From a virus: a DNA stretch of 21,283 nt. The notes below the pieces were generated by a model that was not told the DNA's origin, did no database searches, and saw only the letters and a program-made list of their open reading frames with translations. The stretch lies in UHGV virus genome UHGV-1980310. One strand, given 5' to 3'. Positions 8,796-21,283 of this stretch are shown in pieces (position 1 is the first letter of the stretch; each line of letters begins with the position of its first letter). The translations under genes and the position numbers were made by a program.

Positions 8796-9742
8796 TGCCT
8801 ACCCCGATCACACCGGCGATGATCACCGCCCTGATGACGGGCTACCGTTCTGATTTTCAGGCCGGGATGTCCATGGCTCCGTCTCAGTACCAGAAAATTG
8901 CGATGACCGTACCGTCCACGTCGAAATCCAACACCTACGGCTGGCTGGGGCAGTTCCCGCAGTTCCGTGAGTGGATCGGCTCCCGCGTCATCGAGAAGAT
9001 GAAAGCCTATGGCTACGCCATCGTGAACAAAACCTTTGAAGGCACCGTTGCCATTAGCCGCGATGACTTTGAAGACGACAATCTTGGCATCTACTCCCCG
9101 TTGTTCCAGGAGATGGGGCGCGCTGCGGCGGCACAACCGGATGAACTGGTCTTTGCTGCACTGCGTGATGGTCTGAATGCGGCCTGCTATGACGGCCAGA
9201 ACTTCTTTGATACCGAACACCCTGTTTACCCCAAAGTGGATGGCTCCGGTGATGCACAGATGGTCAGCAATATGTTTGTGGCAAAAACCGGCTCTGTCGG
9301 TGCACAGGCGGATTACAGCGGCCCGGCCTGGTATCTGCTTGACTGCTCCCGCGCGGTAAAACCGCTGATTTATCAGGATCGCCGCAAGGCCGAACTGGTT
9401 GCCCAGACAAAAGTCGATGAAGGCCGTGCGTTTACTGATAACGAGTTTGTGTTCGGTGCTTCCGCCCGTCGCAATGTGGGCTACGGCTTCTGGCAGATGG
9501 CCTACATGATGCAGTCACCGCTGACGCTGGATGCGCTGTGGCACGGCTGGTCAGCCATGCGTGACTTTAAGGCTGACGGTGGCCGCAAACTCGGCATCAA
9601 ACCCACCCATATTGTTGTCCCCACCTCGCTGGAAAAACAGGCGGTGCAGCTGCTGGAGCGCGAGCTGTTCGCGGACGGTAACACCACCGTCTCTAACGAG
9701 ATGAAGGGCAAGCTGGAGCTGGTTGTCGCGGATTATCTGTAA
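8795..9742 (+). CDS. Major head (capsid) subunit, Mu T-like
   Basis: 315 aa, follows the I-like gene with TAATG coupling; size and position match Mu gpT. Confidence 0.65.
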   Translation: MPTPITPAMITALMTGYRSDFQAGMSMAPSQYQKIAMTVPSTSKSNTYGWLGQFPQFREWIGSRVIEKMKAYGYAIVNKTFEGTVAISRDDFEDDNLGIYSPLFQEMGRAAAAQPDELVFAALRDGLNAACYDGQNFFDTEHPVYPKVDGSGDAQMVSNMFVAKTGSVGAQADYSGPAWYLLDCSRAVKPLIYQDRRKAELVAQTKVDEGRAFTDNEFVFGASARRNVGYGFWQMAYMMQSPLTLDALWHGWSAMRDFKADGGRKLGIKPTHIVVPTSLEKQAVQLLERELFADGNTTVSNEMKGKLELVVADYL

Positions 9743-9785
9743 ACGGTGAGCCGGGCTTACGGCCCGGCCCCTGCGGAGGGCAAAT

Positions 9786-10145
9786 ATGAATGAACATCAC
9801 ACTGTGGCAGCAACAGATGATTTAGGCCTTCAGGTCAGTGGTGACAGTCCTGTCACGGTACTGGCAGAAGTGCGTTGCAGTCGTGCGCAGTTTCGTCGTG
9901 CGGGGTTCCTGTTCATGCGGGGACGCCAGCAGGTTGACGTCACCCCGGAGCAGCTTGCCCGACTGGAAGCGGAGCCATGCCTCACTGTACGAATACTACA
10001 GACGCCTGGTGATGATGCGGGAGCCGTGGCGGGTGTGGTTCATGCAGAGACCGGTGCAGATTTAGCCGAAGCCGAAACCGTACAGGATGCTCCCCGGAAA
10101 AAGACCGGCAATAACGCCAGACAGGCGAAAAAGGCGCGCGCATGA
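9786..10145 (+). CDS. Hypothetical head/neck protein
   Basis: GGAGGG RBS; first gene of a tightly coupled block (ATGA overlaps) between the capsid gene and the putative sheath gene. Confidence 0.45.
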   Translation: MNEHHTVAATDDLGLQVSGDSPVTVLAEVRCSRAQFRRAGFLFMRGRQQVDVTPEQLARLEAEPCLTVRILQTPGDDAGAVAGVVHAETGADLAEAETVQDAPRKKTGNNARQAKKARA

Positions 10146-10561
10146 ATTACGCCACCGAAACCGATATGCGGGCACGTTACCGCGAGGATTTGCTCAGGCC
10201 ATTACTGGCCGTGCCCCGTTCGGATGAACCGGACACGCGCAAGCTGAACCGGGCACTGACGGACGCGTCTGCCCTTATCGACAGCTATCTGTCTTCCCGT
10301 TACACGCTGCCGCTGGCGGTGGTTCCGGCGGTCCTTGTTCAGCATTGCTGCACGATTGCCTTTTATTACCTGTGCGATCAGCGGGCATCCGATCAGGCGC
10401 GTGACCGTTACCGTGAGGCGCTGGCCTGGCTGAAAGATGTCATGAACGGTAACGTGCCGGTCGGCGTGGATACAGACGGTGCGGCCCCTGAATCCGGGGA
10501 TTTACCGCAGGTGCAGTCTGATGCGGCGGTGTTCGGGCGCAACCAGAAGGGCTTTATATGA
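10142..10561 (+). CDS. Mu gp36-like (DUF1320-type) head-tail joining protein
   Basis: ATGA overlap with the upstream gene; ~140 aa; N-terminus and position are consistent with Mu gp36 homologues. Assigned from memory of the family. Confidence 0.45.
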   Translation: MNYATETDMRARYREDLLRPLLAVPRSDEPDTRKLNRALTDASALIDSYLSSRYTLPLAVVPAVLVQHCCTIAFYYLCDQRASDQARDRYREALAWLKDVMNGNVPVGVDTDGAAPESGDLPQVQSDAAVFGRNQKGFI

Positions 10562-11121
10562 TTACGGAAACCGAACAGGCATATATCACCCGTATTCGTG
10601 AGTATTTCGGGAATGAACTGGTGTCTGTTGACACACATCCCGGCGACTGGAGCGACAGCGTGCTGCGCACCATGCTGATTAACGCCCCGGCTATCTATGT
10701 TGCCTGGCTGGGTGCCGGTGAAGGGCGTACCCGTGGGCGTCTGGTCAGTCACTGGGTGTTCTACGTCATCGGCGACATGCTCAATGGCCGTGAGGTCAGC
10801 CGTCCCGGGCTTTATCAGATTGTGGCCCGCCTGATTACCGTGCTGGACGGCTTCAGAGCAGAAAAAACCTCACCGCTTTACTTTGAAAAGGCGGTCAACG
10901 GTTACACCGAAACGCAGGCAGGCAGCGGTGCCGTGATGTACGCCCTGTATTTCTCATGCGAGGAAATGATCGACCCGCTGACGGATATCAGCTCGCTGGA
11001 TGATTTCCTGCGCCATTACGAAACCTTTACCGAACCGGAAGGCACGCCGGAATTTAAGGCACACATCCGTCTGCCTGGTGCAACTGCCGCCGGTGAAAAC
11101 GCCGGACTGTCAGAGGAATAA
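10558..11121 (+). CDS. Mu gp37-like protein
   Basis: ATGA overlap with the upstream gene; size and position match Mu gp37. Confidence 0.45.
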   Translation: MITETEQAYITRIREYFGNELVSVDTHPGDWSDSVLRTMLINAPAIYVAWLGAGEGRTRGRLVSHWVFYVIGDMLNGREVSRPGLYQIVARLITVLDGFRAEKTSPLYFEKAVNGYTETQAGSGAVMYALYFSCEEMIDPLTDISSLDDFLRHYETFTEPEGTPEFKAHIRLPGATAAGENAGLSEE

Positions 11122-11124
11122 CAG

Positions 11125-11403
11125 ATGACAACCATTTTTATTAAACCTGCGCCGGGATGCCTGATCCGCGATCCCGACACGATGACTCCGCTCTCTCAGG
11201 ACGGGGAAGAGAAACCCTTCACTCCGTTCTGGTGCCGCCGTCTTAATGATGGCGACGTCATTGTGGTGGATAAAACGGCGGAGCCTGCCCCGGCTGCCAC
11301 AACAGGTAATACCGGCGCGGCGGCAAAACCAGCGGGAGCGGCAGCAGAAAAAACTGCGGCGGTGGCTGAAAAAACCGCAGCATCAGATAAGGGGACGTCC
11401 TGA
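11125..11403 (+). CDS. Mu gp38-like small protein with Ala/Thr-rich low-complexity C-terminus
   Basis: 92-aa ORF in the gp38 position; repetitive AAEKTAA motifs at the C-terminus. Confidence 0.4.
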   Translation: MTTIFIKPAPGCLIRDPDTMTPLSQDGEEKPFTPFWCRRLNDGDVIVVDKTAEPAPAATTGNTGAAAKPAGAAAEKTAAVAEKTAASDKGTS

Positions 11404-13025
11404 TGATTAACTTTGATTATATCGGCGATAACAATCGCATTCCGCTGGTACAGATTGAAATCAATAATTCAATGGCCGTGACCGGCACTCCACCACAGCG
11501 TCAGGCGGTACTGTTGTTTGGTCAGGCTGCAATGAAAGACACCACCATTCAGGGGCGCGGTCAGCTTGATGTACCAGTACGTATTACCCGAGCTTCACAA
11601 GCAAGAGAACTCTGGGGGCGAGGTTCCATGATTGCACTGATGGTAGAGGAATTTATCGCCATTAACCCTGACACAGAGTTATATGCCATTGCACAGGGGG
11701 CTGGAACAGGTCAGTCCAGGGCATGCGTGATGAATATCATTGGAACAGCATTGGCAGACGGGGTGTTAAGTGTTTACATCGGCGGTCGCCGTTACCTCCT
11801 GCCCGTCAGTAAGGGGAAAAAAGGTAAAGAGCTTGTGGAAGAGCTGGCTAAGGTCATTAACGCTGACACTGATGCGCCATTCACTGCTATCGCAGCTGAA
11901 GTCAGTGGTGATAATGCTGAAGGACTTAAAGGCAGCATGGGGGTTAACGCCCGCTTTATCGGTGAATGCTCAGCTCATGATTTACGGGTGAACTATTATG
12001 ACGGTGAAACTACACCGGCCGGTCTTACGCTGGAGCTCGTCGCGCCAACACAGAAGGCAACAAACCCCGATATCACCCGTAGCGTCTCAGGGATGGGGAA
12101 TCGTCAGTACAACTACATCGTCATGCCCTATAAGGATGCGGCAAATCTCAAAATTCTGGCGGATGAACTGCTGAAACGCTGGGGACCGGTAAAAATGTCG
12201 GACGGTATGGTCTGGATGGCGCATACCGGCACCTTCGGTACGGCAACCAGTTTTGGTGAATCCCGTAATGACTTCCTGTTTACCTGCACTTCTATTCCTA
12301 AAGCACCAGAGCCGGATTATGTCTGGGCGGCCTCCATTTGTGCGGTCTGTGCGCCCTCCCTGTCAACGGATCCGGCCCGACCATTACAGACACTGGCGCT
12401 GCCTGCCCGTATGGCACCTGAAGCACCAGCTCGTCTGACGCGGGAAGAGCGAAACAGCCTGCTTTATACCGGCATGTCCACGGTGACCGTCGCGGCCGCT
12501 GACATGGTGCAGATTGAACGTCAGGTGACGATGTACCGTCAGAATGCATACGGCGAAAGCGATCCCAGCTATCTGGATGTGGAAACCATCTACACCCTGT
12601 CATATCTGCGTTATTCCCTGCGCACCTTTATCACGCAACGTTTTCCGCGCCATAAACTGGCTGATGACGGGACGCCTGTTCGTGCAGGTCAGAATATCGT
12701 GACGCCGGAGATCATGAAACTTCAGTTAATTTCGCTGGGTGAAGAATGGGTGGAGCTGGGACTGGTCGAAAATCTGGACACCTTTAAAAAGAATCTGCTC
12801 GTGGAGCGCAACACAAAAGACCGTAACCGTCTGGATGTGATGTGTACACCGGATCTGGTTAACCAGTTCCGCTTCATGGCCGCGCACCCGGATTACGGCA
12901 CGTTAAATGTGCTGATAAACAGCTTTGAAAGTCGTTATAACGCTGCTGAACAGGGCGTGGTTGAGTTCACCATTAATGTCACGCCGGTAAGTGATGATAT
13001 CTGGGGTTACCGGAATGTGATATGA
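11403..13025 (+). CDS. Putative contractile tail sheath protein (Mu L position), 540 aa
   Basis: Large ORF in the sheath position after gp36-38-like genes, with TGATG coupling. Assigned by synteny only. Confidence 0.5.
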   Translation: MINFDYIGDNNRIPLVQIEINNSMAVTGTPPQRQAVLLFGQAAMKDTTIQGRGQLDVPVRITRASQARELWGRGSMIALMVEEFIAINPDTELYAIAQGAGTGQSRACVMNIIGTALADGVLSVYIGGRRYLLPVSKGKKGKELVEELAKVINADTDAPFTAIAAEVSGDNAEGLKGSMGVNARFIGECSAHDLRVNYYDGETTPAGLTLELVAPTQKATNPDITRSVSGMGNRQYNYIVMPYKDAANLKILADELLKRWGPVKMSDGMVWMAHTGTFGTATSFGESRNDFLFTCTSIPKAPEPDYVWAASICAVCAPSLSTDPARPLQTLALPARMAPEAPARLTREERNSLLYTGMSTVTVAAADMVQIERQVTMYRQNAYGESDPSYLDVETIYTLSYLRYSLRTFITQRFPRHKLADDGTPVRAGQNIVTPEIMKLQLISLGEEWVELGLVENLDTFKKNLLVERNTKDRNRLDVMCTPDLVNQFRFMAAHPDYGTLNVLINSFESRYNAAEQGVVEFTINVTPVSDDIWGYRNVI

Positions 13026-13351
13026 CCGGCGCAACCATTCAGGAGCGTCAGCGTTATGCCGGGAATAAATACCGGATGAAACCCTCTCTTAACCGTGAAT
13101 TTTATATCCGGTTTGCGGCAGAGTTTGGTTATGAAATAGATATTCAGCCATCACCGGATTCACAGTGGGTCAGTATTGTCACGATTAACAGTGAAACCGG
13201 CTACCGGAATATGAATGTGCTGGATGATATTCTCACGCCGCTGCGTATTTATGAAGGCGGTGCGCTGGAATGTATTCTGAACCGTTATAAGCCTGCATGG
13301 CAGACGTTTATTTACGTGTATGCAAACAGCCATGAAGAGGAGACTATTTAA
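13022..13351 (+). CDS. Short DUF2313 / Mu gp48-like protein, apparently only the C-terminal half
   Basis: C-terminal motif [14 protein letters not shown] and central [13 protein letters not shown] resemble YmfQ / Mu gp48-family proteins, which are ~190 aa. Sits directly upstream of the tail fibre gene as gp48 does in Mu. Recollection-based. Confidence 0.4.
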
Positions 13352-14241
13352 TGTTTCATGTTGATAATAATTCCGGCGTGGCGAATATGCCTGCGCTGGC
13401 ACCAGCGCAGAGTAATACCACCACCTGGTTTACCGAAGGTGACGGACAAAAAGGTATCAGCTGGATTGGTCAGGACTGGCTGAATATTCTCCAGGCCGAA
13501 CTGCTGAATATTCTGGCTGAAGCCAGTATTCAGCCGGATAAGGCGCAGTTAAACCAGCTTACGCTGTCCATTAAAGCCATTATCGCTGCGAATGCCTTTT
13601 CCCGGAAAAATAACCTGAAAGAAATTGCTGATGCCGGTGCGGAGGCCCAGCGTCTGGCCCGTGGTTATCTTGGTCTGGGGACGCTTGCCACAAAAAACAG
13701 TCTTGGTCCCGCTGACGTTAATGCCCTGGCGAAGGATCAGAATCTCGCCGACCTAGAGAATAAGGGAACCGCCCGTAATAATCTGGATGTTTACAGCAAA
13801 AGCGAAGGTGATAACCGTTACCTGCGCAGGGAGCAGAACGGCGCAGACATTCCGGATAAAGGGGCTTTTATCGATAACGTCGGTTTACGGGAAACGGTAA
13901 ACAGGGCGGCGAATGCTCTGCCATCGGACGGCACCGCCGTTGCCGCGAATAGACTCGCCACCCCAAGAAATATTAATGGGGTTCCCTTTGACGGGACGCA
14001 GGACATAAACATCACTTCTGGTATAACACAGCAGGATGCGGATTCCCGATATATCCAGGATATCAGGCTGGGAGCAGAGAACAGGCAGGTAATGTACGGT
14101 GGGGCATATTACTCTGCGTACGGTAATGTTATGGCAGGCCTGCAGATTGACAGTAAAGTTGATGCTTCAAACGATTTTATAGCATTCAGACCCCTGCAAA
14201 AATTAGTCGGAGGTACATGGATTACGGTATCTCAGTTATAA
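13351..14241 (+). CDS. Tail fibre protein (Mu S / P2 H type); constant N-terminus fused to variable C-terminal cassette Sv in the current orientation
   Basis: C-terminus [29 protein letters not shown] and [12 protein letters not shown] are hallmark P2 H / Mu S motifs. The gene spans the left crossover site at 13868-13893. Confidence 0.8.
13868..13893. repeat. Left crossover site (gix/hix-like 26-bp imperfect palindrome) of the invertible segment
   Basis: TTATCGATAACGTCGGTTTACGGGAA; its inner half is identical to the inner half of the right site and resembles Gin/Hin-family recombination sites. Confidence 0.6.
13881..14005. repeat. Left arm of ~120-bp imperfect inverted repeat flanking the invertible segment
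   Basis: Reverse complement of ~15075-15197 matches this stretch with a few mismatches (for example GGCGGCGAATGC(T/C)CTGCCATCGGACGGCACCGCCGTTGCCGCGAA). Confidence 0.65.
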
Positions 14242-14292
14242 ATAGTCAGTAAATAATATATTTTAAAACAGATTTATTTCCAGGAGGATTTT

Positions 14293-14814
14293 ATGGAACT
14301 AAAAAATATAACCCGTTATTATCCTGAAAATATGCCATATGGTAATAATGTTCAGTATTTCCAGAGTGAAGATGGTAAGGATTTCTACGAATCCCTGCCA
14401 TTATTCACCAAAAAATATAAACTTTGCATAACACCTGACAGCGGCGTTATCTGCTCAATATCACAGGACGCCTCGGCGCTGTATCCTGCGGGGTTTTCTG
14501 TGGTTGAGGTCGATGAACTCCCTGAAGGCACGGATATTTCAGGAAACTGGAAGTTTGATAATGGCATAATCTCCCGTATTCCGGTTAACTACGCAAGAAA
14601 ACTGGAAGCAATGCGCCAGTCATATCTTAATCAGGCATATGAAAAAATTAATGACTGGAGAACGGAGCTACAACTGGGCACCATCAGCGATGAAGACAGA
14701 GCAGCACTTACCCAATGGATGGCATACATCAGTCAGGTGAAGAAAATGGAACTACCCGCCATTAAAACAGAAGCTGAATTTAACGCCATTAAATGGCCTG
14801 AGCAGCCACAGTAA
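14293..14814 (+). CDS. Tail fibre assembly chaperone (Mu U / P2 G type)
   Basis: AGGAGG RBS; 173 aa; C-terminal region (QWMAYISQVKKMELP...IKWPEQP) is typical of tail-fibre assembly proteins. Immediately downstream of the fibre gene. Confidence 0.8.
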   Translation: MELKNITRYYPENMPYGNNVQYFQSEDGKDFYESLPLFTKKYKLCITPDSGVICSISQDASALYPAGFSVVEVDELPEGTDISGNWKFDNGIISRIPVNYARKLEAMRQSYLNQAYEKINDWRTELQLGTISDEDRAALTQWMAYISQVKKMELPAIKTEAEFNAIKWPEQPQ

Positions 14815-14817
14815 TAA

Positions 14818-14837
14818 AGAAGGCCGGAAGGCCTTCT
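14818..14837. terminator. Bidirectional hairpin between convergent U and S'v
   Basis: AGAAGGCC-GGAA-GGCCTTCT: 8-bp GC-rich stem with a 4-nt loop, 4 nt after the U stop and 9 nt from the S'v stop. Confidence 0.5.
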
Positions 14838-14845
14838 GAATATCA

Positions 14846-15197
14846 TTATATACTTGCAGCCGTCACCCATGCTCCATTTAACAGATACTGCAACGGCCGG
14901 TAATACACGCCGCCGACGTTATCTGCCGTATTCTTACCGACATCCTGTACTTTAATTCCGGTAAGAACATTGCCGCCCCCCAGATTCAGATCCCAGCTTT
15001 CCCATGTTCCGGGCATATGTGCGGTCACCGACCCCAGTCTTATGGCGGTTACTGTTCCTGATGAGATAGTGATATCCTGCGTCCCGTCAAAGGGAACACC
15101 ATTAATTGTGTGGGCATTTGCCAGCCTGTTCGCGGCAACGGCGGTGCCGTCCGATGGCAGGGCATTCGCCGCCCTGTTTACCGTTTCCCGTAAACCG
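14846..15197 (-). other. Alternative tail-fibre C-terminal cassette (S'v), promoterless and inverted; would fuse to the constant part of S after inversion
   Basis: Minus-strand frame is open from the right crossover site down to the stop at 14846. It encodes ...[25 protein letters not shown]... (shared with Sv) then a divergent end ...YRPLQYLLNGAWVTAASI that parallels the Sv terminus. Confidence 0.7.
15075..15197. repeat. Right arm of ~120-bp imperfect inverted repeat flanking the invertible segment
   Basis: See left arm; the antisense shadow ORFs of the two arms translate to near-identical peptides. Confidence 0.65.
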
Positions 15198-15210
15198 AGG
15201 TTTTCAGGAA
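15185..15210. repeat. Right crossover site (gix/hix-like) of the invertible segment
   Basis: TTCCCGTAAACCGAGGTTTTCAGGAA, in inverted orientation to the left site; lies ~65 bp upstream of the invertase gene. Confidence 0.6.
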
Positions 15211-15275
15211 AGCCAGGATTAACTCTGTTTTATTCCTCATGCGACAATTCCGGCTTTTTATAATAAGGAAATCGT

Positions 15276-15847
15276 ATGCTGATTGGGTATATCAGGGTGT
15301 CAACAAATGACCAGAATACGGCGCTACAAAGAAATGCGCTGGAATGTGCAGGATGTGAGCTGTTTTTCGAAGACAGAATAAGCGGTAAGACAAGGGAGCG
15401 TCCCGGACTTAAACGCGCATTAAAGCGACTCCGGCCAGGGGATACCCTGCTGGTCTGGAAACTGGATCGCCTTGGACGCAGTATGCAGCACCTTGTCCTT
15501 TTAACAGAAGAACTCCGGCAACGCGGCGTTAACTTCCGCAGCATTACGGACAATATTGATACATCCACTCCCATGGGACGTTTCTTTTCCATATAATGGG
15601 CGCGCTGGCGGAAATGGAGCGGGAACTCATTATTGAACGTACACGCGCGGGTCTTGCTGCTGCCCGTGCTCAGGGGCGTCATGGCGGCAGACCTCAGAAA
15701 CTGACAGAGAAAGAGCGGGAGCAAATCGCCCGTTTGCTGGCTAATGGCGAGTCCCGTAAACAAATCGCACTGATATTTGATATTGGCCTTTCCACCCTTT
15801 ATCGTTATTTTCCTGCCTCACCAGCTCCGTCACCAAAAGTACCGTGA
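15276..15847 (+). pseudogene. gin: Gin/Hin/Pin/Cin-family serine DNA invertase, disrupted by a 1-nt frameshift
   Basis: N-terminal ORF (15276-15596, catalytic motif GYIRVSTNDQ) ends ...MGRFFSI*; the next frame continues MGALAEMERELIIERTRAGL... through the C-terminal HTH. Invertases read ...GRFFFH(V/I)MGALAEMERE, so one T is missing from the T-run at 15585-15588. Confidence 0.8.
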
Positions 15848-15932
15848 CGCTTTTTTGAATTTCCGCAAAACACATATTTTTCAGCGGTCGCTATTCTGAC
15901 TCTGTTTAATTCAGAAACAGGCAGAAAAGACG

Positions 15933-17987
15933 ATGTCAGACTCCAAGTGGAAAATGCTCTCCGCCATGCCCGGAGAGTTTTCAGTCAAGGTTGCCGGTGG
16001 CACGGCGGCATTTATTGAAAGCCCTTTCCGCCCTTCGGGTAATAAAGGGGGGATCACCTTCGCAGACTGCGTGATCCGCTTCAGCACGAAAGAGCCATTA
16101 TGGGTAATGCCGGTATCCGGTAATCCCAGTGCAGAAATCACCAGTTCAGGCGTGACTGGCATCATTCCAATCACATCTGACGTGGCCGGAACGCTCACGC
16201 CCTCCGACTGGAATGCACCGGATAACGCCGGGCCTTCCGGTAGCACGAATGGCAGCAGTTCAGAGCCGGAATATTACTTTGTTGTCATTCTCGCGGGTCA
16301 GTCAAATGGCATGGCCTACGGCGAGGGGCTGCCGTTACCGGATTCGTTTGACCGCCCGGACCCACGCATTAAGCAACTGGCACGCCGCAGTACGGTAACG
16401 CCCAACGGTACGTCGTGTACATACAACGACATCATTCCGGCAGACCACTGCCTGCATGATGTTCAGGATATGAGCGGGATAAACCACCCGAAAGCTGATC
16501 TGGCAAAAGGCCAGTACGGGACTGTCGGTCAGGGGTTGCATATTGCCAAAAAACTGCTTCCCTATATCCCACAGAATGCCGGGATACTTCTGGTGCCCTG
16601 TTGTCGTGGCGGGTCAGCATTCACCACTGGAGCCGACGGCTCATTCAGTGAGGCCAGCGGTGCTTCCGCTGATTCTTCACGCTGGGGGGCCGGTAAACCT
16701 CTGTATCAGGACCTGGTAAGCCGCACCAAAGTCGCGCTGGCGAAAAACCCGAAAAACAAACTTCTGGCTGTGGTCTGGATGCAGGGAGAGGCAGACCTTG
16801 CCTCAGGAAGCCAGCAGCATAATAGTTTATTCACGGCCATGGTTCAGCAGTTCAGAACTGACCTGGCTCCGCTTGCTGCGCAGTGCGTGAGTGGAAATGC
16901 CACCACGGTGCCGTGGATTTGCGGTGATACCACGTATTACTGGAAAAACGCTGGCACCGATAAATATGAGGCAGTATACGGTGGCTACAAAGGCAAGGAA
17001 GCACAGAAAATTTTCTTTGTACCGTTCCTGACGGATGAGAATGGACAGAGCACGCCAACGAATGCTCCGGCGGAAGACCCGGATATTGTGGCTGTCGGGT
17101 ATTACGGTGCAGCATCCCGAACCCAGGGCAGTTTTGTTTCGACACAGCGTGACAGCCATTTCAGCTCATGGGCACGCAGGGGCGTCATTTCAGACCGTCT
17201 GGCCTCAGCTATTATGCTCCATGCAGGGCGCACGGCTGAACTGATGCGCGGGCAGACCGTGACACCACCGGATGAGAAGCCGTCACCTGATACACCATCA
17301 AAACCGTCCACGCCACCCGCAGACACCACGACGATGAGTACGCTATTTGCTTACCGGGCATCTGAGTCTGAAGGACGGTTGACACCACAGGGTTGGGCTG
17401 CCGGAGGTGGCAAGGCTCAAATCGTGGATGATGCCGGAGCCAGCGGGGGTAAGGCAATGAAACTGACCAAGGAAACAGGAAGAGCCCCCTGGTACCTTGA
17501 GCATGATGCTGGTAATGGTGCGGACCTGCTGGGTAAAGGTGGTCTTGTCAGTTGTCGTTTTAAACTCGATGGCGCGCTTACGGCTAATCAGTACGCACTG
17601 GCGCTGTACTGGCCGGTTTCTGCCCTGCCGCAAGGGGTTACTCTGGAAGGAAATGCCGGTCATAACCTGCTGGCATCGTTCTACGTACAGAGCGATGCCA
17701 CAGACCTTAACGTGATGTATCACAAAGGAAACACGGCGCAGAACACGAAGCTGGGGTCATTCGGCGCATTTAATAACGAATGGCATACGCTGGGCTTCCG
17801 TTTTGCCGGTAACAACAGTATTGAGGTGACGCCGGTCATTGATGGTAAGGACGGGACACCATTCATGCTGTCGCAGTCTCCGGTCGGCACGTTTACGGCA
17901 GACAAGTTGCGCGTGACCGATATCACTAAAAATGCGACTTACCCGGTACTGATTGACAGTATCGTGGTGGAAGTGAATAACGCGTAA
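15933..17987 (+). CDS. Putative SGNH/SASA-family O-acetylesterase (NanS-p-like) with a Pro/Thr-rich linker and C-terminal ~210-aa domain
   Basis: Motif VVILAGQSNGMAYGEG (nucleophile Ser, nt ~16296-16307) and downstream WMQGEAD match the sialate O-acetylesterase family. Linker PPDEKPSPDTPSKPSTPPADTTT at ~17265-17335 separates a C-terminal beta-rich domain. Confidence 0.6.
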   Translation: MSDSKWKMLSAMPGEFSVKVAGGTAAFIESPFRPSGNKGGITFADCVIRFSTKEPLWVMPVSGNPSAEITSSGVTGIIPITSDVAGTLTPSDWNAPDNAGPSGSTNGSSSEPEYYFVVILAGQSNGMAYGEGLPLPDSFDRPDPRIKQLARRSTVTPNGTSCTYNDIIPADHCLHDVQDMSGINHPKADLAKGQYGTVGQGLHIAKKLLPYIPQNAGILLVPCCRGGSAFTTGADGSFSEASGASADSSRWGAGKPLYQDLVSRTKVALAKNPKNKLLAVVWMQGEADLASGSQQHNSLFTAMVQQFRTDLAPLAAQCVSGNATTVPWICGDTTYYWKNAGTDKYEAVYGGYKGKEAQKIFFVPFLTDENGQSTPTNAPAEDPDIVAVGYYGAASRTQGSFVSTQRDSHFSSWARRGVISDRLASAIMLHAGRTAELMRGQTVTPPDEKPSPDTPSKPSTPPADTTTMSTLFAYRASESEGRLTPQGWAAGGGKAQIVDDAGASGGKAMKLTKETGRAPWYLEHDAGNGADLLGKGGLVSCRFKLDGALTANQYALALYWPVSALPQGVTLEGNAGHNLLASFYVQSDATDLNVMYHKGNTAQNTKLGSFGAFNNEWHTLGFRFAGNNSIEVTPVIDGKDGTPFMLSQSPVGTFTADKLRVTDITKNATYPVLIDSIVVEVNNA

Positions 17988-18002
17988 GCAGGATAAAAAA
18001 AT

Positions 18003-18035
18003 GCCGCCGGTAAGGGAAAACAAGAAACCGGCGGC
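18003..18035 (-). terminator. Rho-independent terminator-like hairpin (strongest on the minus strand)
   Basis: GCCGCCGGT-N15-ACCGGCGGC: 9-bp stem flanked by an A-run upstream, which is a U-run after the hairpin on the minus strand. Confidence 0.4.
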
Positions 18036-18131
18036 AAAAAGATCGTTATATCCAAAGCAAAAAATGCAGTGCACCTTTTTACCTAACAGATATTACCGGT
18101 GTCAACACCATGTCAATAATTGGGAGGGATA

Positions 18132-18314
18132 ATGACATTTTTACAGCTTATTTTATTGTATTTCTGCACGGCAGTATGTGCGTTATATCTGGTGAGTGGT
18201 GGTTATAAGGCCATCAGAAATTATGTTCGCCGCAAAATTGAGGACGCAGCAGCTGAAAAACTCAGTAAAACAGCGCAGGTAACTCCGCTCCCAAAAGACC
18301 CGACCCAGCCCTGA
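18132..18314 (+). CDS. Small single-pass membrane protein (~60 aa)
   Basis: GGGAGGG RBS before ATG 18132; hydrophobic helix TFLQLILLYFCTAVCALYLVSGGY followed by a basic tail. Confidence 0.4.
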   Translation: MTFLQLILLYFCTAVCALYLVSGGYKAIRNYVRRKIEDAAAEKLSKTAQVTPLPKDPTQP

Positions 18315-18349
18315 TTGCAGGGCTTTATTCCCGCATAAGGAGGATATAC

Positions 18350-18604
18350 ATGCCAGAAATTAAAGGCACCGTCACTGAAGACCTGGTAAAACAGGCACTG
18401 TATTCCGGTGAAGTAAATAAGTTGCTGAAAGCGCAGGTCCGCAAGGATTTTGAGGCACAAATCGACACTTACGTTGATGAAGTGCTGGCAAAACTTATTG
18501 GGCCAGCAGTTGCGGCCAGTGATGCTGATAATGAGCCGAAAACCGACGCGCAGCCAGAGCAACCAGACCCGGCTCAGCCCGGAACTGACAGTACCATGAT
18601 GTAA
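18350..18604 (+). CDS. Hypothetical acidic 84-aa protein
   Basis: Consensus AAGGAGG RBS 6 nt upstream of the ATG; followed by hairpins at 18611-18636 and 18662-18690. Confidence 0.5.
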   Translation: MPEIKGTVTEDLVKQALYSGEVNKLLKAQVRKDFEAQIDTYVDEVLAKLIGPAVAASDADNEPKTDAQPEQPDPAQPGTDSTMM

Positions 18605-18610
18605 CAATAC

Positions 18611-18690
18611 AAACCGGTGGTGTCCTCTGCCGGTTTGACACTAATGAAAACATCTTTGCCGCTATCCAGCCATATGTAATCGCTGGATAG
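18611..18690 (+). terminator. Two hairpins in the convergent intergenic region (candidate bidirectional terminators)
   Basis: AAACCGG-N12-CCGGTTT (18611-18636) and CTATCCAGC-N11-GCTGGATAG followed by TATTTCGTATT (18662-18690). Confidence 0.4.
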
Positions 18691-18771
18691 TATTTCGTAT
18701 TCAGAAATATAGCTGCTTATGGAGCAGTCAATCCTGCTTCCCCATCCGGGCAGGCAAATGAACCGGTATCA

Positions 18772-19065
18772 TTAGTCCGATTCACGCTTTTGTAGAATCG
18801 TTCCCAGAATGCTATACAGCTCATTAGCCTGTTGCTCCATCATTGAGACGGAGGCTATACGGTGCAAAGTGATTTCAGGAGGTGGCACACCTCCATCTTC
18901 TTGCTGTGGAGGAAAAACATAAGATTTAATAAAAAAGTTGAAGCATATGAACTCTCCCGCACTCGAACTGTATTTGCAGGCATCTGAATAATCGGAAAAA
19001 TAATCATTATAGATTTCCGCATTTTCAATCATTTTTCGATTTCTCGTCGTTACATGATTGTCCAT
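18772..19065 (-). CDS. Hypothetical 97-aa protein, opposite strand to the rest of the prophage
   Basis: AAGAGG RBS immediately upstream of the ATG; AT-rich promoter-like region at 19066-19200. Only clearly reverse-oriented gene inside the prophage. Confidence 0.5.
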   Translation of the reverse strand: MDNHVTTRNRKMIENAEIYNDYFSDYSDACKYSSSAGEFICFNFFIKSYVFPPQQEDGGVPPPEITLHRIASVSMMEQQANELYSILGTILQKRESD

Positions 19066-19184
19066 AGCAGCCTCTTACGCTGGCAATTAACCAATTGACT
19101 TCTATAAATTAGTTGATTTGTTTGCTTTGCGGTATTCAAATGTACAATCATTCAGCACTTATGCGTTACAGCACCGTTTAAAAT

Positions 19185-19282
19185 TAGTGATCAAACTCAT
19201 AAATTTTCGCTAATGACATTTCGTGTTATTTGTTGTATCAATTAAATAAATCAAATCGATCGTTTTTGTCGATCGATTGAGT
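19185..19282 (+). promoter_or_regulatory. Putative Dam-methylation-sensitive mom regulatory region
   Basis: Three GATC sites (19189, 19258, 19271) within ~85 bp upstream of com; the last two sit in a palindrome AATCGATCG-N7-CGATCGATT. Confidence 0.4.
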
Positions 19283-19321
19283 GATAAAGATATCAACAAC
19301 AAAGCAGGAGGTTATGCGGCC

Positions 19322-19522
19322 ATGTATCGAAACATACGGTGCCGACATTGTAACAAGCTACTGGCACGAGCCAGCTTCAGTTATCTGGAAGTTAAATGTC
19401 CGCGCTGTAAAACCCTCAATCAAATCACATCTCAGAGCGCCACAGAGCACCCCACATACACAAGGAAATCCTGTCGTGGGGAACAGAAAGCAAGTTACAT
19501 CCCGTATCATCAGCACGCCTGA
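19322..19522 (+). CDS. com: Com, zinc-finger translational activator of mom
   Basis: [10 protein letters not shown]...EVKCPRCK matches the Mu Com CxxC...CxxC zinc-binding pattern; ~66 aa; overlaps the 5' end of the mom frame as in Mu. Confidence 0.75.
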
Positions 19523-20213
19523 ACTTATTCACTATAACGACAATATCGTCGGTTATGGCTCCCGTGAGTTACGGGTTGAGACAATAAGTTGCTGGCTGGC
19601 CCGGCTGGTCGTCGTCAATAAACATTACAGCCATCGTTTCGTAAATAATTCCTACCTTCATCTGGGCATATTTTCAGAACGGGAGCTGGTTGGCGTAATG
19701 CAATGGGGTTATGCCCTTAATCCAAACAATGGTGCACGCGTCGTAACTGGCACGCAGAACCGCGAATATATGGAGCTTAACCGGTTATGGCTGCATGACT
19801 GTATGCCGAGAAACTCCGAATCAAGGGCAATCAGTTACGCGCTCAAACTAATCAGACAACTTTATCCGCAGGTGCAGTGGGTTCAGTCGTTTGCAGATGA
19901 GCGTTGTGGCTGTCTTGGTGTCGTGTACCAGGCAAGCAATTTTGATTATGTAGGCAGTCATGAAACAACATTCTATGAACTTGATGGCGAGTGGTATCAC
20001 GAGATTTGCAAGAATGCAATCAAACGAGGAGGACAGCGAGGTGAACATCTGCGGGCTAATATCGACAGAGCCAGTGTTCATAAATTCCGTCAGTTTCGTT
20101 ACATCCGGTTTCTGGACAAGAGAGCCAGAAAACGCCTTAACACAAAGCTATTCAAAGTCCAGCCTTACCCAAAACCACAAACAGTTAAAACTGGTTTGAA
20201 AGAGAGTGAATGA
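19476..20213 (+). CDS. mom: Mom-like DNA modification protein; start codon uncertain
   Basis: Long ORF overlapping the 3' end of com, last phage gene before the right end, ~237 aa from an in-frame GTG at 19476. The in-frame ATG at 19314 sits too close to the SD, and there is no other in-frame ATG before ~19700. Confidence 0.65.
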
Positions 20214-20249
20214 ACGCTTAAAAACTCATTCTAAAACTCAAAAGAAAAG

Positions 20250-20289
20250 CGCCGATTTAGTATCAAATAAGTTGCGTATCGGCGTTTTT
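20250..20289 (+). terminator. Hairpin plus T5 run downstream of mom
   Basis: CGCCGAT-N21-ATCGGCG followed by TTTTT; the loop is long, so it is a weak terminator call. Confidence 0.35.
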
Positions 20290-20333
20290 CAGCGGTATCA
20301 AATGAAATGCAAATCGGTATCAAAAAAATCGCC
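20259..20333. repeat. Three direct repeats of a GTATCAAA(T/A)-containing motif next to the prophage right end (candidate transposase-binding end sites)
   Basis: AGTATCAAATAAGTTGC (20259-20275), CGGTATCAAATGAAATGCA (20293-20311), CGGTATCAAAAAAATCGCC (20315-20333). Mu-family ends carry multiple transposase-binding repeats. Confidence 0.4.
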
Positions 20334-20336
20334 GCG

Positions 20337-20552
20337 CTATAACTGGCTGATGTTTTGCGCCAGCAACACGCCATCCAGCGACGGAATATTGATATCCAGA
20401 AAAATGGCGTCGACGCGGTTATGCTGCAAAAACTTCAACACGTCCAGACCGTCGTCAAAGGTGCCGACAATCTCCATCTGGCTGTGCTCTTTAATTAGCC
20501 AGCTCAGTTCCTGTTGTGCCAGGAATTCGTCTTCAACAATGATGACTTTCAC
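20337..20552 (-). pseudogene. ypdB: Host LytTR-type response regulator (ypdB-like), 5' fragment truncated by the prophage insertion
   Basis: Encodes (M)KVIIVEDEFLAQQELSWLIKEHSQMEIVGTFDDGLDVLKFLQHNRVDAIFLDINIPSLDGVLLAQNISQ then L*: the receiver domain is cut at ~residue 72. Identity as ypdB (versus paralogue yehT/btsR) is from memory. Confidence 0.6.
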
Positions 20553-20566
20553 AATATCACTCCGGC

Positions 20567-21283
20567 TCAAAGCAATAACGTAGCCTGTGAGGCGACTGGG
20601 GTGCGTTGGTTAGGAATGTAAAACGCAATTTCCGTCCCCGGCTCCAGGCGGCGGATATGCAGCCCCTCGCCATACAATAACTTCACGCGATGATGGACAT
20701 TCAGCAGGCCAATTTTATTGCCCGGCATTTCATTCGCTTCGACCCGCTCAATCACCTTTGGATCGATGCCGTGCCCGGTATCTCGCACCGCAATGCGTAC
20801 CCGATTTCCGCACTCTGCAACGCTGATGGTGACAACGCCTTTACCTTTGCAAGGCTGAATACCGTGGACAATGGCGTTCTCCACCAACGGCTGGATCAGC
20901 AGGCTGGGAATGCAGCAATTCACCTCTTCATCAATATCATAGATAACCGTCAGCTTGTCACCAAAGCGGGCCTGCTCAATGGCAATATAGTCTTTAATTT
21001 GATACAGCTCTTTTTTGATATCGATTTGCTCATCGTCTTTTAATTCAATGCTATAGCGCAGATAACGCGACAGATTAAAGATCAACTGGCGAGCGGTATC
21101 CGGATTCAGACGGATTGACGATGAAATAGCGTTCAGAGCGTTAAACAGAAAATGGGGATTAATTTTGCTTTGCAGGGCGCGAAGCTCTGCCTTATTTGCC
21201 ATTTCACGTAGCTGCTCGGCGCGTGAAACCTCCAGTTGCGTGGAGATGATTTGCGACAGACCGACCGCCATTTCCTGTAATGA
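20567..21283 (-). CDS. ypdA: Host LytS-type sensor histidine kinase (ypdA-like), 3' part; continues beyond the window
   Basis: Histidine kinase motifs [10 protein letters not shown] (H-box) and ATP-binding region ([23 protein letters not shown]); sits immediately upstream of the response-regulator fragment. Confidence 0.65.

What the first reader, a model, noticed from the sequence alone, without database searches (positions are those of the whole stretch)
19185..19530. Conserved com/mom arrangement with a GATC-containing palindrome upstream
A Com-like zinc-finger ORF overlaps the 5' end of a long Mom-like ORF that lacks a well-placed ATG, consistent with Com-dependent translational activation as in Mu. 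Upstream, three GATC sites include two inside the palindrome AATCGATCG-N7-CGATCGATT, reminiscent of the Dam/OxyR-controlled mom promoter of Mu. The nearby AT-rich region could equally serve the divergent 97-aa gene.
Basis: partly seen in the sequence, partly recalled or inferred. Interest (0 to 1): 0.45.

Follow-up and report, generated by a model that had tools for sequence, protein, structure and literature searches.

The report
Mu-like com–mom operon, OxyR/Dam operator
This is the ordinary com–mom DNA-modification operon at the right end of a decayed Mu-like prophage of E. coli, preceded by a two-GATC palindrome that closely matches known OxyR/Dam-controlled switches; it is a known kind of system with a slightly different promoter layout.

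Summary
It overlaps mom by 47 nt. mom is 19476-20213 and starts at GTG, as in Mu; it is 78% identical to Mu Mom, with the active-site residues kept. The mRNA carries the Com operator hairpin (GAGCGCCACAGAGCACC, matching the published SELEX motif). It also carries a hairpin (CCCCAC/GUGGGG) that buries the mom GUG.

The perfect palindrome AATCGATCG-N7-CGATCGATT (19254-19278) holds two GATCs 13 bp apart. Its core is 21/23 identical to the agn43 OxyR operator of E. coli K-12, and it aligns with GATC II/III of Mu Pmom. The same GATC pair precedes com cassettes of other enterobacterial phages whose late activators are unrelated, which points to a host factor (OxyR plus Dam).

Differences from Mu:
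- two conserved GATCs rather than three (the third, 19189, is not conserved);
- the site lies 27 bp closer to com;
- no Mu C box and none of this lineage's own late-promoter motif, so the operator probably overlaps the core promoter, as in agn43 and gtr.

The prophage is defective: the late activator, lysis, packaging and tail genes are deleted and gin is frameshifted. RefSeq already annotates these genes and the literature mentions them for Sp18. Verdict: a new member of a known kind, of modest interest.

The parts
19189..19192 (.). Distal GATC. Not part of the conserved element.
   Evidence: Present in the window and L010-type sequences but absent from O157/Sp18-type relatives. Lies in a weak inverted repeat, 19180-19207.
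19237..19273 (.). Putative 37-bp OxyR tetramer site: half-site 1 at 19237-19251 (ATCAATTAAATAAAT) and half-site 2 at 19259-19273 (ATCGTTTTTGTCGAT).
   Evidence: Scores 13/20 against ATAGnTnnnAnCTAT-N7-ATAGnTnnnAnCTAT. The Mu register over its three GATCs also scores 13/20 and agn43 scores 14/20. It is the top score in the window, shared with two unrelated places. Binding is inferred.
19254..19278 (.). Perfect palindrome AATCGATCG-N7-CGATCGATT, centred on OxyR half-site 2 (an LTTR-type T-N11-A box).
   Evidence: repeat I4. Invariant in 11 distinct group-A sequences, with one substitution in L028. Core 19255-19277 is 21/23 identical to the agn43 operator ATCGATCGTTTATATCGATCGAT.
19258..19261 (.). 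GATC-a, a Dam site, equivalent to Mu GATC II.
19271..19274 (.). GATC-b, a Dam site, equivalent to Mu GATC III, 13 bp from GATC-a and 51 nt before the com ATG.
   Evidence: The same 51-52 nt distance is seen in groups B and C, against 76-78 nt in Mu-type loci.
19283..19296 (+). Candidate -10 region of the com-mom promoter (GATAAA 19283-19288 or TATCAA 19291-19296). The transcription start is inferred at about 19295-19304 and has not been mapped.
   Evidence: By position relative to the near-consensus -10 in group B (TATACT) and group C (TATCAT), which starts 7 nt after GATC-b. L023/L033 read TATCAT at the second position. No sigma-70 consensus promoter was found on the + strand.
19306..19311 (+). 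com Shine-Dalgarno, AGGAGG.
   Evidence: Read. It lies 10 nt before ATG 19322 and is conserved in group A, apart from one substitution (AGAAGG) in L028.
19322..19522 (+). com: 66-aa zinc-ribbon translational activator.
   Evidence: Pfam PF10122, 48.2 bits against a cut-off of 22.9. PHROG 'gpCom control of modification'. 45% identical to Mu Com. Cysteines conserved.
19435..19451 (+). Com operator on the mRNA: GA-GCGC-CACAGA-GCAC-C. Stem 19437-19440 with 19447-19450, loop 19441-19446.
   Evidence: Matches the SELEX motif GAGNNCC(N)2-3GAGNNCC (PMC6483171). The hairpin covaries in 23 loci: 91% paired, 18 double changes, 0 of 500 shuffles as good. The window has a C.A mismatch at the second pair.
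19450..19481 (+). Translation-inhibition hairpin. CCCCAC (19450-19455) pairs with GUGGGG (19476-19481); the loop holds the mom Shine-Dalgarno AAGGAA (19462-19467).
   Evidence: Minimum-free-energy fold of -14.3 kcal/mol, with the same topology as the folds of Mu and Chuche. The z-score is only -1.4.
19476..20213 (+). mom: 245-aa Gly-tRNA(Gly)-dependent adenine N6-carbamoylmethyl transferase, with a GTG start.
   Evidence: Pfam PF25680, 261 bits. 78% identical to Mu Mom. PDB 8bv8, E = 2e-123. Residues equivalent to W48, H58, Y59, R111, S124, D149, R151 and Y159 are conserved.
20244..20290 (+). Strong hairpin followed by a U run after the mom stop. Likely the operon terminator.
   Evidence: -21.6 kcal/mol, z = -5.5.

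Best explanation
The region is the com-mom operon at the right end of a Mu-like (Sp18-type) prophage inserted in E. coli ypdB. One transcript carries com and mom.

Translation. com is translated from a strong Shine-Dalgarno. The mom GUG and its Shine-Dalgarno are locked in a hairpin (CCCCAC/GUGGGG). Com, a zinc-ribbon RNA-binding protein, binds the small hairpin immediately 5' of it (GAGCGCCACAGAGCACC), opens the inhibitory structure and allows Mom synthesis.

Enzyme. Mom is a GNAT-fold enzyme that uses Gly-tRNA(Gly) to convert adenine in duplex DNA to N6-carbamoylmethyl-adenine. This protects the DNA from many restriction enzymes and is toxic if mistimed.

Transcription. Control is through the palindrome, which is an OxyR half-site carrying two Dam sites 13 bp apart and forms part of a 37-bp OxyR site at 19237-19273. 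When the GATCs are unmethylated, OxyR binds and blocks the promoter. Dam methylation prevents OxyR binding.

Difference from Mu. In Mu the OxyR site lies at about -90 to -54, upstream of a C-activator box. Here the operator lies about 27 bp closer and probably overlaps the -35/spacer of a weak promoter (as in P22 gtr) or its early leader (as in agn43).

Shown here: gene identities, the start codon, the RNA motifs and their covariation, and sequence homology of the operator to Mu and agn43. Inferred: OxyR binding, the effect of Dam, the position of the transcription start, and the activity of Com and Mom.
For: - Gene families. Identity to Mu Com and Mom, and the shared GUG start.
- Mom active-site residues are conserved (with PMC13219725).
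- The Com operator matches the published SELEX motif, and the hairpin covaries. The inhibitory hairpin that includes the GUG is predicted in the window, Mu and Chuche.
- The palindrome is perfect and is the only match to the palindrome pattern in the window, and GATC-N9-GATC occurs only once there.
- It aligns with Mu GATC II/III at identical spacing and is 21/23 identical to the agn43 operator core.
- P22 gtr OxyR half-sites also hold GATC pairs 13 bp apart, at -46/-33, and methylation abolishes OxyR binding there (PMC2909390).
- The GATC pair is kept at 51-52 nt from the com ATG in three lineages: the Sp18-type, a Citrobacter-type cassette with a C5-methyltransferase, and a P2-like Chuche/Salmonella type with Ogr. 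The late activators are unrelated in the two lineages where they were identified (Mor family in the Sp18 type, Ogr in the P2-like type), which argues for a host factor.
- No Mu C box (CCATAACCCC) and none of this lineage's late-promoter motif (CCGCAAAnCCnGCCCC) lies upstream of com.
Against: - There is no experimental evidence for this locus.
- The OxyR consensus score of 13/20 is also reached at two unrelated places in the window (1705-1741 and 18064-18100), so it does not discriminate on its own. Half-site 1 is simply AT-rich.
- No promoter meeting sigma-70 consensus was found on the + strand. The stretch where groups B and C have a good -10 is degenerate and variable in the window's lineage, so the start site is uncertain.
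- The Com operator has a C.A mismatch in a 4-bp stem.
- The fold z-scores are unremarkable.
- This prophage copy has lost its Mor-family activator gene and many other genes, so the operon may never be expressed here.
Confidence: 0.75

Rival explanations
1. The palindrome is the operator of a phage-encoded regulator (the Mor/C-family late activator, or a repressor) rather than of OxyR, and the GATCs are incidental to a CGATCG dyad.
For: A perfect 9-bp dyad is typical of a dimeric helix-turn-helix protein. It lies where class II activators bind, and Mu Pmom does need the activator C (PMC3378877). The promoter here looks too weak to work alone.
Against: - The same GATC pair occurs in com cassettes of Mu-like phages (Mor family) and P2-like phages (Ogr), whose activators are unrelated.
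- It also occurs in chromosomal agn43, which needs no phage protein.
- The two recognisable late promoters of this lineage share a different motif, CCGCAAAnCCnGCCCC.
- The palindrome occurs once per prophage.
Confidence: 0.1
2. The palindrome acts as a nucleic-acid hairpin: an intrinsic terminator for leftward (minus-strand) transcription, or a leader hairpin in the com mRNA if transcription starts upstream (candidate aTGACA 19213-19218, 17 nt, TATCAA 19236-19241).
For: The terminator scan flags it on the minus strand: a 9-bp stem followed by TGATTTATTT. As RNA it folds at -11.9 kcal/mol, z = -2.1. Both candidate upstream hexamers are invariant in group A.
Against: - No minus-strand gene reads into it; com and mom are on the + strand.
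- Across lineages the conserved letters are the GATCGAT blocks and their spacing, while the loop changes (TTTTTGT, TTTTTAT, ATAAAAA, GTAATAC). That pattern fits a protein or methylation site.
- The upstream -10 lacks the conserved final T and is not seen in groups B and C.
Confidence: 0.07
3. The two GATCs act through Dam methylation directly or through SeqA, which binds hemimethylated GATC pairs. This would couple com-mom transcription to replication of the prophage DNA without OxyR.
For: Two GATCs about one helical turn apart form a SeqA-type target (general knowledge). In gtr, methylation also affects promoter activity directly (PMC2909390).
Against: The flanking letters, not only the GATCs, match OxyR operators: ATCGnT...AnCGAT and 21/23 identity to agn43. 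SeqA needs no such context.
Confidence: 0.05
4. The locus is an inert relic. The prophage is so decayed that com-mom and its operator are no longer used, and their intactness only reflects recent decay.
For: The prophage has lost 9.7 kb (activator, lysis, terminase, portal) and about 7.8 kb (tail), and gin is frameshifted. An even smaller remnant in strain DLI.5a still keeps com-mom.
Against: Both ORFs, all the RNA motifs and the operator are intact and identical to copies in apparently complete prophages. This rival concerns present use, not what the element is.
Confidence: 0.03

Closest known systems
Bacteriophage Mu com-mom operon and its promoter Pmom (Dam/OxyR, C, Com)
   Same: - Position at the right end of a transposable prophage.
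- com overlaps mom (47 nt against 50 nt).
- GUG start of mom buried in a CCCAC/GUGGG stem.
- Com operator hairpin directly 5' of that stem.
- Mom 78% and Com 45% identical.
- Upstream GATCGAT blocks 13 bp apart.
   Different: - Two conserved GATCs rather than three.
- The proximal GATC is 51 nt from the com ATG, against 78 nt in Mu.
- No C box (TTAT-N6-ATAA / CCATAACC), no T6 tract and no TAAGAT -10.
- com and the upstream DNA are too diverged from Mu to be found by blastn.
- gin is not adjacent: three 'moron' genes and a divergent orphan ORF lie between gin and com.
agn43 (flu) OxyR/Dam phase-variation switch of E. coli
   Same: The operator core ATCGATCGTTTATATCGATCGAT is 21/23 identical to window 19255-19277, with a GATC pair 13 bp apart and an AT-rich upstream half-site. 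OxyR acts as a repressor and methylation abolishes its binding (PMC2909390).
   Different: agn43 has a third GATC 19 bp upstream and its operator lies downstream of the transcription start. It controls an autotransporter, not a DNA-modification operon, and has no Com layer.
P22/Salmonella gtr OxyR/Dam switch
   Same: GATC pairs 13 bp apart lie inside single OxyR half-sites. The promoter-proximal pair, at -46/-33, overlaps the core promoter and mediates repression (PMC2909390). With the TATCAA candidate -10, the window pair would fall at about the same positions.
   Different: gtr has three half-sites and two GATC pairs, which give an ON/OFF switch with an activating site. Only one pair is seen here.
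com-methyltransferase cassettes of other prophages (FluMu HI1522.1-hin1523, Pnm1, B3; here also Chuche, Citrobacter and Salmonella loci)
   Same: A Com zinc ribbon precedes a DNA-modification gene, with a Com-type hairpin before the start codon (PMC3299994).
   Different: The downstream enzyme is an N6- or C5-methyltransferase instead of Mom. The non-enterobacterial cassettes lack the GATC pair.
Sp18-type Mu-like prophage of E. coli O157 (closest natural relative)
   Same: The O157:H7 copies match window 19227-20340 at 95.8% identity, covering palindrome, com, mom and right end. The literature already says Sp18 encodes Mom and its regulators (PMC3299994).
   Different: The DNA left of 19227 differs (another divergent ORF) and there is no distal GATC. 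The 13 nt after the palindrome also differ.

Membership tests
Com (Zn_ribbon_Com, translational activator of a DNA-modification gene) | Four-cysteine zinc ribbon (CxxC ... CxxC) in a protein of about 60-70 aa. | tested here: met
   C7, C10, C26 and C29 align with the Mu Com cysteines. Pfam PF10122, 48.2 bits against a cut-off of 22.9. PHROG 13819.
Com (Zn_ribbon_Com, translational activator of a DNA-modification gene) | The gene lies directly upstream of, and overlaps, the modification gene it controls. | tested here: met
   com 19322-19522 and mom 19476-20213 overlap by 47 nt.
Com (Zn_ribbon_Com, translational activator of a DNA-modification gene) | A cognate RNA operator, a short hairpin presenting CC(N)2-3GAG, adjacent to a structure that sequesters the target start codon. 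| tested here: met
   GAGCGCCACAGAGCACC at 19435-19451 fits NGAGNNCC(N)2-3GAGNNCCNN. The hairpin covaries in 23 loci. The stem 19450-19455 with 19476-19481 contains the GUG. Caveat: a C.A mismatch in the operator stem.
Com (Zn_ribbon_Com, translational activator of a DNA-modification gene) | Binds the mRNA and activates translation. | not testable with these tools
   Needs EMSA, toeprinting or translational fusions.
Mom (PF25680; GNAT-fold Gly-tRNA(Gly)-dependent adenine modification enzyme) | Full-length match to the family model and to the solved Mu Mom structure. | tested here: met
   261 bits, profile positions 1-202 of 202. PDB 8bv8, E = 2.4e-123, ungapped over 229 residues including the helix-turn-helix-like insertion. 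78% identical to Mu Mom.
Mom (PF25680; GNAT-fold Gly-tRNA(Gly)-dependent adenine modification enzyme) | Residues required for activity: W48, H58, Y59, R111, S124, D149, R151 and Y159 in the numbering of PMC13219725. | tested here: met
   All are identical in the alignments ([37 protein letters not shown]). The numbering offset was inferred from the S124A position in 8bv8.
Mom (PF25680; GNAT-fold Gly-tRNA(Gly)-dependent adenine modification enzyme) | Produces N6-carbamoylmethyl-dA in DNA. | not testable with these tools
   Needs LC-MS or a restriction-protection assay.
OxyR/Dam-controlled operator (Mu Pmom, agn43, gtr type) | Two or more GATCs inside an OxyR half-site, 13 bp apart (gATCGnTnnnAnCGATc). 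| tested here: met
   GATCGTTTTTGTCGATC at 19258-19274. The spacing is the same in Mu, agn43 and gtr.
OxyR/Dam-controlled operator (Mu Pmom, agn43, gtr type) | Match to the 37-bp OxyR tetramer consensus. | tested here: inconclusive
   13/20 at 19237-19273, equal to Mu (13) and close to agn43 (14). Two unrelated places in the window also reach 13.
OxyR/Dam-controlled operator (Mu Pmom, agn43, gtr type) | Sequence homology to an experimentally established operator. | tested here: met
   21/23 identical to the agn43 core. Aligns with Mu AAATCGATCG-N8-GATCGATT.
OxyR/Dam-controlled operator (Mu Pmom, agn43, gtr type) | OxyR binding is blocked by Dam methylation, and expression depends on Dam and OxyR. 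| not testable with these tools
   Needs EMSA with and without methylation, and reporters in dam and oxyR hosts.
Mu-type C-activated late promoter (Pmom architecture) | A C-activator box (TTAT-N6-ATAA / CCATAACC) between the GATC cluster and a TAAGAT -10, with a T6 tract and a 19-bp spacer. | tested here: not met
   - No such box is present.
- Only 47 nt separate GATC-b from the com ATG, against 74 nt in Mu.
- The lineage's own late-promoter motif is absent within 2 mismatches and within 3 mismatches in the window.
- The activator gene itself is deleted from this copy.

The most novel reading that the evidence does not exclude
In this prophage lineage the com-mom promoter no longer depends on the phage late activator. 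It has no activator box, and the cassette survives in remnants that have lost the activator gene. Instead it would be governed only by the agn43/gtr-like OxyR/Dam operator over the core promoter. The operon would then switch ON heritably in a minority of lysogens, producing subpopulations whose chromosome and resident phages carry N6-carbamoylmethyl-adenine. That would be phase-variable 'momylation' used by the host, not only a late lytic function. Whether mom phase-varies is stated to be unknown (PMC2909390).
Probability: 0.1. Interest if true: 0.65.

Novelty: new member of a known kind. Interest (0 to 1): 0.25.

Why it matters
The operon itself is textbook Mu biology. It is already annotated in RefSeq and occurs in 233 of 5426 complete E. 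coli genomes.

Three things are mildly useful:
- It gives a natural variant of Pmom in which the OxyR/Dam element lies over or next to the core promoter with no C box. That should make it easier to separate OxyR/Dam control from activator control, and to ask whether mom expression phase-varies like agn43 and gtr.
- The comparison shows that operator, promoter, com, Com hairpin, inhibitory hairpin and the first codons travel together as a cassette. In enterobacterial phages this cassette is fused to Mom, C5-methyltransferases or N6-methyltransferases.
- The Com hairpin covariation across distant loci supports the published RNA model.

Tried and rejected
- My first family search used com coordinates one base off (19323) and found nothing. 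Corrected.
- I first took AAAGAT (19286-19291) as the -10 because it resembles Mu TAAGAT and lies at a similar distance from the ATG. I rejected it because close relatives read AAAGGC or GCAAAC there.
- I looked for a Mu-type C box and for the late-promoter motif of this lineage (CCGCAAAnCCnGCCCC, derived from the promoters before lys and I). Neither is present upstream of com. The motif rests on only two promoters, so its absence is weak evidence.
- The sigma-70 scan found no + strand promoter. Three candidate promoters remain unresolved: -10 at 19283-19288, -10 at 19291-19296, and an upstream aTGACA-17-TATCAA.
- The classical papers on OxyR at Pmom (PMC401183, PMC147061) are not held. The exact Mu footprint is therefore from my own knowledge, and the 37-bp register in Mu is my consensus-based inference.
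- The 97-aa divergent ORF gave no hit in Pfam, NCBIfam, PHROGs or tblastn against phages.
- No tRNA gene was found in the window.
- I did not use the large protein searches, structure prediction or Rfam, because family membership was already unambiguous.
Full report
**Context.** The window is most of a Mu-like prophage of E. coli.
- It starts at the transposase gene and ends in host DNA.
- Homology to every E. coli genome begins at 20341, inside ypdB, with ypdA beyond it.
- The region 18600-20340 is 100% identical in ten complete E. coli genomes listed. It is found at 90% identity or more in 233 of 5426, always at different chromosomal sites, as expected for a transposable phage.
- RefSeq annotates the two genes as 'Com family ...' and 'Mom family adenine methylcarbamoylation protein' or 'tRNA(Gly)-dependent adenine aminoacyltransferase Mom'.
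- O157:H7 (Sp18-type) copies match from 19227 to the prophage end at 95.8%.

**Checking the observation.**
- The palindrome has perfect 9-nt arms (19254-19262 and 19270-19278) separated by 7 nt.
- GATC is under-represented in the window (50 found, 75 expected). The three GATCs at 19189, 19258 and 19271 are the only ones in 2.7 kb.
- A perfect 9-bp inverted repeat is not rare by itself (about 0.9 expected per window). One holding two GATCs appeared in only 2 of 300 simulated windows.
- GATC-N9-GATC occurs once in the window and once in the whole Mu genome, at Pmom.
- com is ATG 19322 to 19522, not the longer TTG ORF. It is preceded by AGGAGG at 19306-19311.
- The Mom frame is open from 19281, but the family match starts at residue 96 of that frame. 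Alignment with Mu puts the start at GTG 19476 (MGNRKQ... against MGKEKK...), 9 nt after AAGGAA. The missing ATG is thus explained by a conserved GUG start, which PMC6483171 also describes for Mu.

**The two proteins.**
- Com is 66 aa and passes Pfam Zn_ribbon_Com (48.2 bits, cut-off 22.9) and the PHROG 'gpCom control of modification'. It is 45% identical to Mu Com, with all four zinc cysteines in register.
- Mom is 245 aa and covers the whole Pfam Mom model (261 bits). It is 78% identical to Mu Mom and matches the crystal structure 8bv8 at E = 2e-123 without gaps, including the helix-turn-helix-like insertion.
- The residues that PMC13219725 names as the putative active site (H58, Y59, R111, S124, D149, R151, Y159), of which alanine changes at R111, S124 and D149 greatly reduced activity, and W48, whose mutation also severely reduced activity, are all identical.
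- That paper shows Mom uses Gly-tRNA(Gly) to aminoacylate N6 of adenine in duplex DNA at SAS motifs. A rearrangement then gives N6-carbamoylmethyl-dA.

**The RNA layer.**
- The 3' part of com reads CAGAGCGCCACAGAGCACCCCAC. This fits the SELEX-derived Com motif NGAGNNCC(N)2-3GAGNNCCNN and the loop motif CC(N)2-3GAG of PMC6483171.
- I collected 80 com loci from viral contigs and 27 from genomes. The element GA-[NNGC]-[C N2-3 GA]-[GCNN] is present before the target start codon in most of them.
- On 23 distinct sequences the 4-bp stem is 91% paired. There are 18 cells with changes on both sides (AU/GC/GU at pair 1; CG/UA/GC at pair 2). No shuffle of 500 and no slid register does as well. My regular expression fixed the two inner pairs, so only the two outer pairs are independent evidence.
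- The window, like its nearest relatives, has a C.A mismatch at pair 2. One natural variant (L019) restores U.A.
- Immediately after the operator, CCCCAC (19450-19455) pairs with GUGGGG (19476-19481), which contains the start codon. The Shine-Dalgarno lies in the enclosed loop. Mu and phage Chuche fold the same way. The energies are not exceptional (z = -1.4), so the argument rests on homology, not thermodynamics.
- Mechanism: this matches the Mu model, in which Com binds the small hairpin and opens the translation-inhibition structure.

**The DNA layer.** Alignment anchored on the GATCs gives:
- Mu: AAATC-GATC-GGTAATACA-GATC-GATT
- window: AAATC-GATC-GTTTTTGTC-GATC-GATT

The window pair therefore corresponds to Mu GATC II and III. 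The E. coli K-12 agn43 (flu) regulatory region reads ATCGATCGTTTATATCGATCGAT, which is 21 of 23 identical to window 19255-19277. It has a third GATC 19 bp upstream. The inner 15 bp (ATCGTTTTTGTCGAT) is an OxyR dimer half-site of the form ATAGnTnnnAnCTAT, with a GATC at each end. PMC2909390 describes this same arrangement for the P22 gtr half-sites (GATC pairs at -110/-97 and -46/-33). There, methylation abolishes OxyR binding and OxyR protects the GATCs from Dam.

Scored against the 37-bp tetramer consensus, 19237-19273 reaches 13/20. The Mu register over its three GATCs also scores 13 and agn43 scores 14. This is the maximum in the window, but two unrelated places share it.

That OxyR represses Mu mom unless the GATCs are methylated is from Bolker and Kahmann 1989 and Hattman and Sun 1997, cited in PMC3378877 and PMC2909390. 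I could not read the originals.

**Comparative evidence for a host factor.** The com loci fall into four groups.

| Group | Members | Gene after com | GATC positions from com ATG | -10 |
|---|---|---|---|---|
| A | window, Sp18-type | Mom; a C5-methyltransferase in L035/L036 | -64, -51 | degenerate |
| B | Citrobacter braakii and relatives; Com about 72% identical | C5-methyltransferase | -65, -52 | TATACT |
| C | P2-like phage Chuche (has Ogr), Salmonella | N6-methyltransferase | -82, -64, -51 | TATCAT |
| Mu-type | Mu, D108, SfMu, Yersinia phages, L080 | Mom | -109, -91, -78 (L080: -104, -86, -73) | TAAGAT, after a C box |

- The 13-bp pair is conserved in all four groups. The distance from the proximal GATC to the com ATG is 51-52 nt in A, B and C, against 76-78 nt in the Mu-type.
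- Mu-like and P2-like phages use unrelated late activators (Mor/C family against Ogr). agn43 needs none. The shared element is therefore best explained by host OxyR and Dam.
- Non-enterobacterial com cassettes (Haemophilus, Pasteurella, Acinetobacter, Desulfovibrio and various metagenome-assembled genomes) lack the pair.

**Where is the promoter?**
- In Mu the start is at L001 2247. I derived this from the -58 to +20 fragment of PMC3378877 and its sequence in PMC4461284. The GATCs therefore start at -87, -69 and -56, with the C box and a TAAGAT -10 between them and com.
- The window has only 47 nt between GATC-b and the com ATG. It has no C box and none of the motif shared by the two recognisable late promoters of this lineage (CCGCAAAnCCnGCCCC-N17-TTAYGCT, found before lys in the intact relative and before gene I at window 7620).
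- Groups B and C have a near-consensus -10 starting 7 nt after GATC-b. Natural group-C variants that have lost the GATC cluster keep that -10. There the operator covers the -35 and spacer.
- In group A the equivalent stretch is degenerate and is the most variable part of the region (GATAAA, GAGAAA, GAAGCA). A second candidate lies 9 nt further on (TATCAA in the window, TATCAT in L023/L033). With that candidate the GATCs would fall at about -46/-33, as in gtr.
- A third possibility is an upstream aTGACA-17-TATCAA (19213-19241, invariant in group A). That would put the palindrome in the leader, as in agn43.
- The sigma-70 scan finds nothing on this strand. I therefore leave the start as inferred (about 19295-19304 preferred). 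In every case OxyR bound at 19237-19273 would obstruct RNA polymerase.

**State of this copy.**
- Compared with an apparently complete relative (L013 plus L002), the prophage lacks 9.7 kb: the Mor-family activator, lysis genes, terminase and portal. The junction is at about 5888-5898.
- It also lacks about 7.8 kb of tail genes, with junctions at about 12886 and 12998.
- Its gin-like invertase is frameshifted (T5 to T4 near 15584).
- The fibre segment 13863-15214 is inverted relative to L002.
- com, mom and their control elements are nevertheless intact. A strong hairpin with a U run (20244-20290, -21.6 kcal/mol, z = -5.5) follows mom.

**Comparison with what is known, and verdict.**
- This is a member of the Mu com-mom family by every sequence criterion I could test. 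PMC3299994 already notes that Sp18 encodes Mom and its regulators, and that Com homologues precede methyltransferases in FluMu, Pnm1 and B3.
- The operator belongs with the OxyR/Dam sites of Mu, agn43 and gtr.
- It does not share the Mu Pmom architecture (C box and upstream operator); that feature was tested and not met.
- I file it as a new member of a known kind with a variant promoter layout. Interest is modest. The main open point is whether such an operator-over-promoter arrangement makes mom phase-variable.

Noticed in passing
window ~5888-5898: Deletion junction. About 9.7 kb present in an intact relative (L013rc 9666-19402: Mor-family late activator, lysozyme and spanins, terminase, portal) is missing. 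ORF 5774-6889 spans the junction.
   Followed up: partly
window ~12886 and ~12998: A second internal loss of about 7.8 kb of tail genes (tube, tape measure, baseplate; L002 6560-14397). Only a 116-bp diverged piece lies between the junctions. The 540-aa ORF 11403-13025 is a truncated or fused tail sheath.
   Followed up: partly
window 15276-15847 (frameshift near 15584) and 13863-15214: The gin-like serine recombinase is broken by a 1-nt deletion in a T5 run. The adjacent tail-fibre segment is inverted relative to the relative L002, so it is probably frozen in one orientation.
   Followed up: yes
window 20340|20341; 20337-21271 minus strand: Junction between the prophage right end and host DNA, inside ypdB (the response-regulator gene is truncated to its N-terminal receiver part), with ypdA next to it. 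Three GGTATCAAA-type repeats at 20260-20324 are probably transposase-binding sites.
   Followed up: partly
L035/L036, L037-L042, L095 (Citrobacter), L003/L043-L069/L096 (Chuche, Salmonella): The control cassette (GATC operator, com, Com hairpin, inhibitory hairpin and the first codons GTG GGG AAC/ATC) is fused to different DNA-modification genes. L035 has a Com 98% identical to the window's over residues 1-56 but a C5-cytosine methyltransferase instead of Mom. Group C has an N6-methyltransferase in P2-like phages.
   Followed up: partly
L065, L068, L097: Natural group-C variants have lost the GATC cluster, apparently by deletion between GATCGAT repeats, but keep the TATCAT -10. They look like natural operator-less mutants.
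   Followed up: no
L072, L077, L078, L082, L084 (distant com loci): These carry two tandem Com-type hairpins. The 3' strand of the proximal hairpin is complementary to the stretch just before the AUG (L077 GCGUC...GACGC-AUG; L084 GCCUC...GAGGC), so the Com hairpin and the inhibitory hairpin are mutually exclusive. This is a more direct switch than in Mu.
   Followed up: no
window 18772-19065, minus strand: The divergent 97-aa ORF (RefSeq calls an 86-aa version) has no hit in Pfam, NCBIfam, PHROGs or phage genomes. O157-type relatives carry a different, frameshifted ORF there. It is an orphan gene of unknown function.
   Followed up: partly
window 15933-18604: Three genes lie between gin and com: a 684-aa protein with SASA (sialate O-acetylesterase-like) and DUF6645 domains, then DUF1378 and DUF826. 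They are absent from this position in Mu, where gin is adjacent to com.
   Followed up: no
window 19322-19522 (annotation in RefSeq relatives): RefSeq names Com a 'DNA-binding transcriptional regulator'. The experimental literature describes an RNA-binding translational activator, so the product name is misleading.
   Followed up: no
L002 570-649 (relative, not in the window): RefSeq annotates a 'tRNA-OTHER' between the F and G head genes of the intact relative. ARAGORN finds no tRNA in the window.
   Followed up: no
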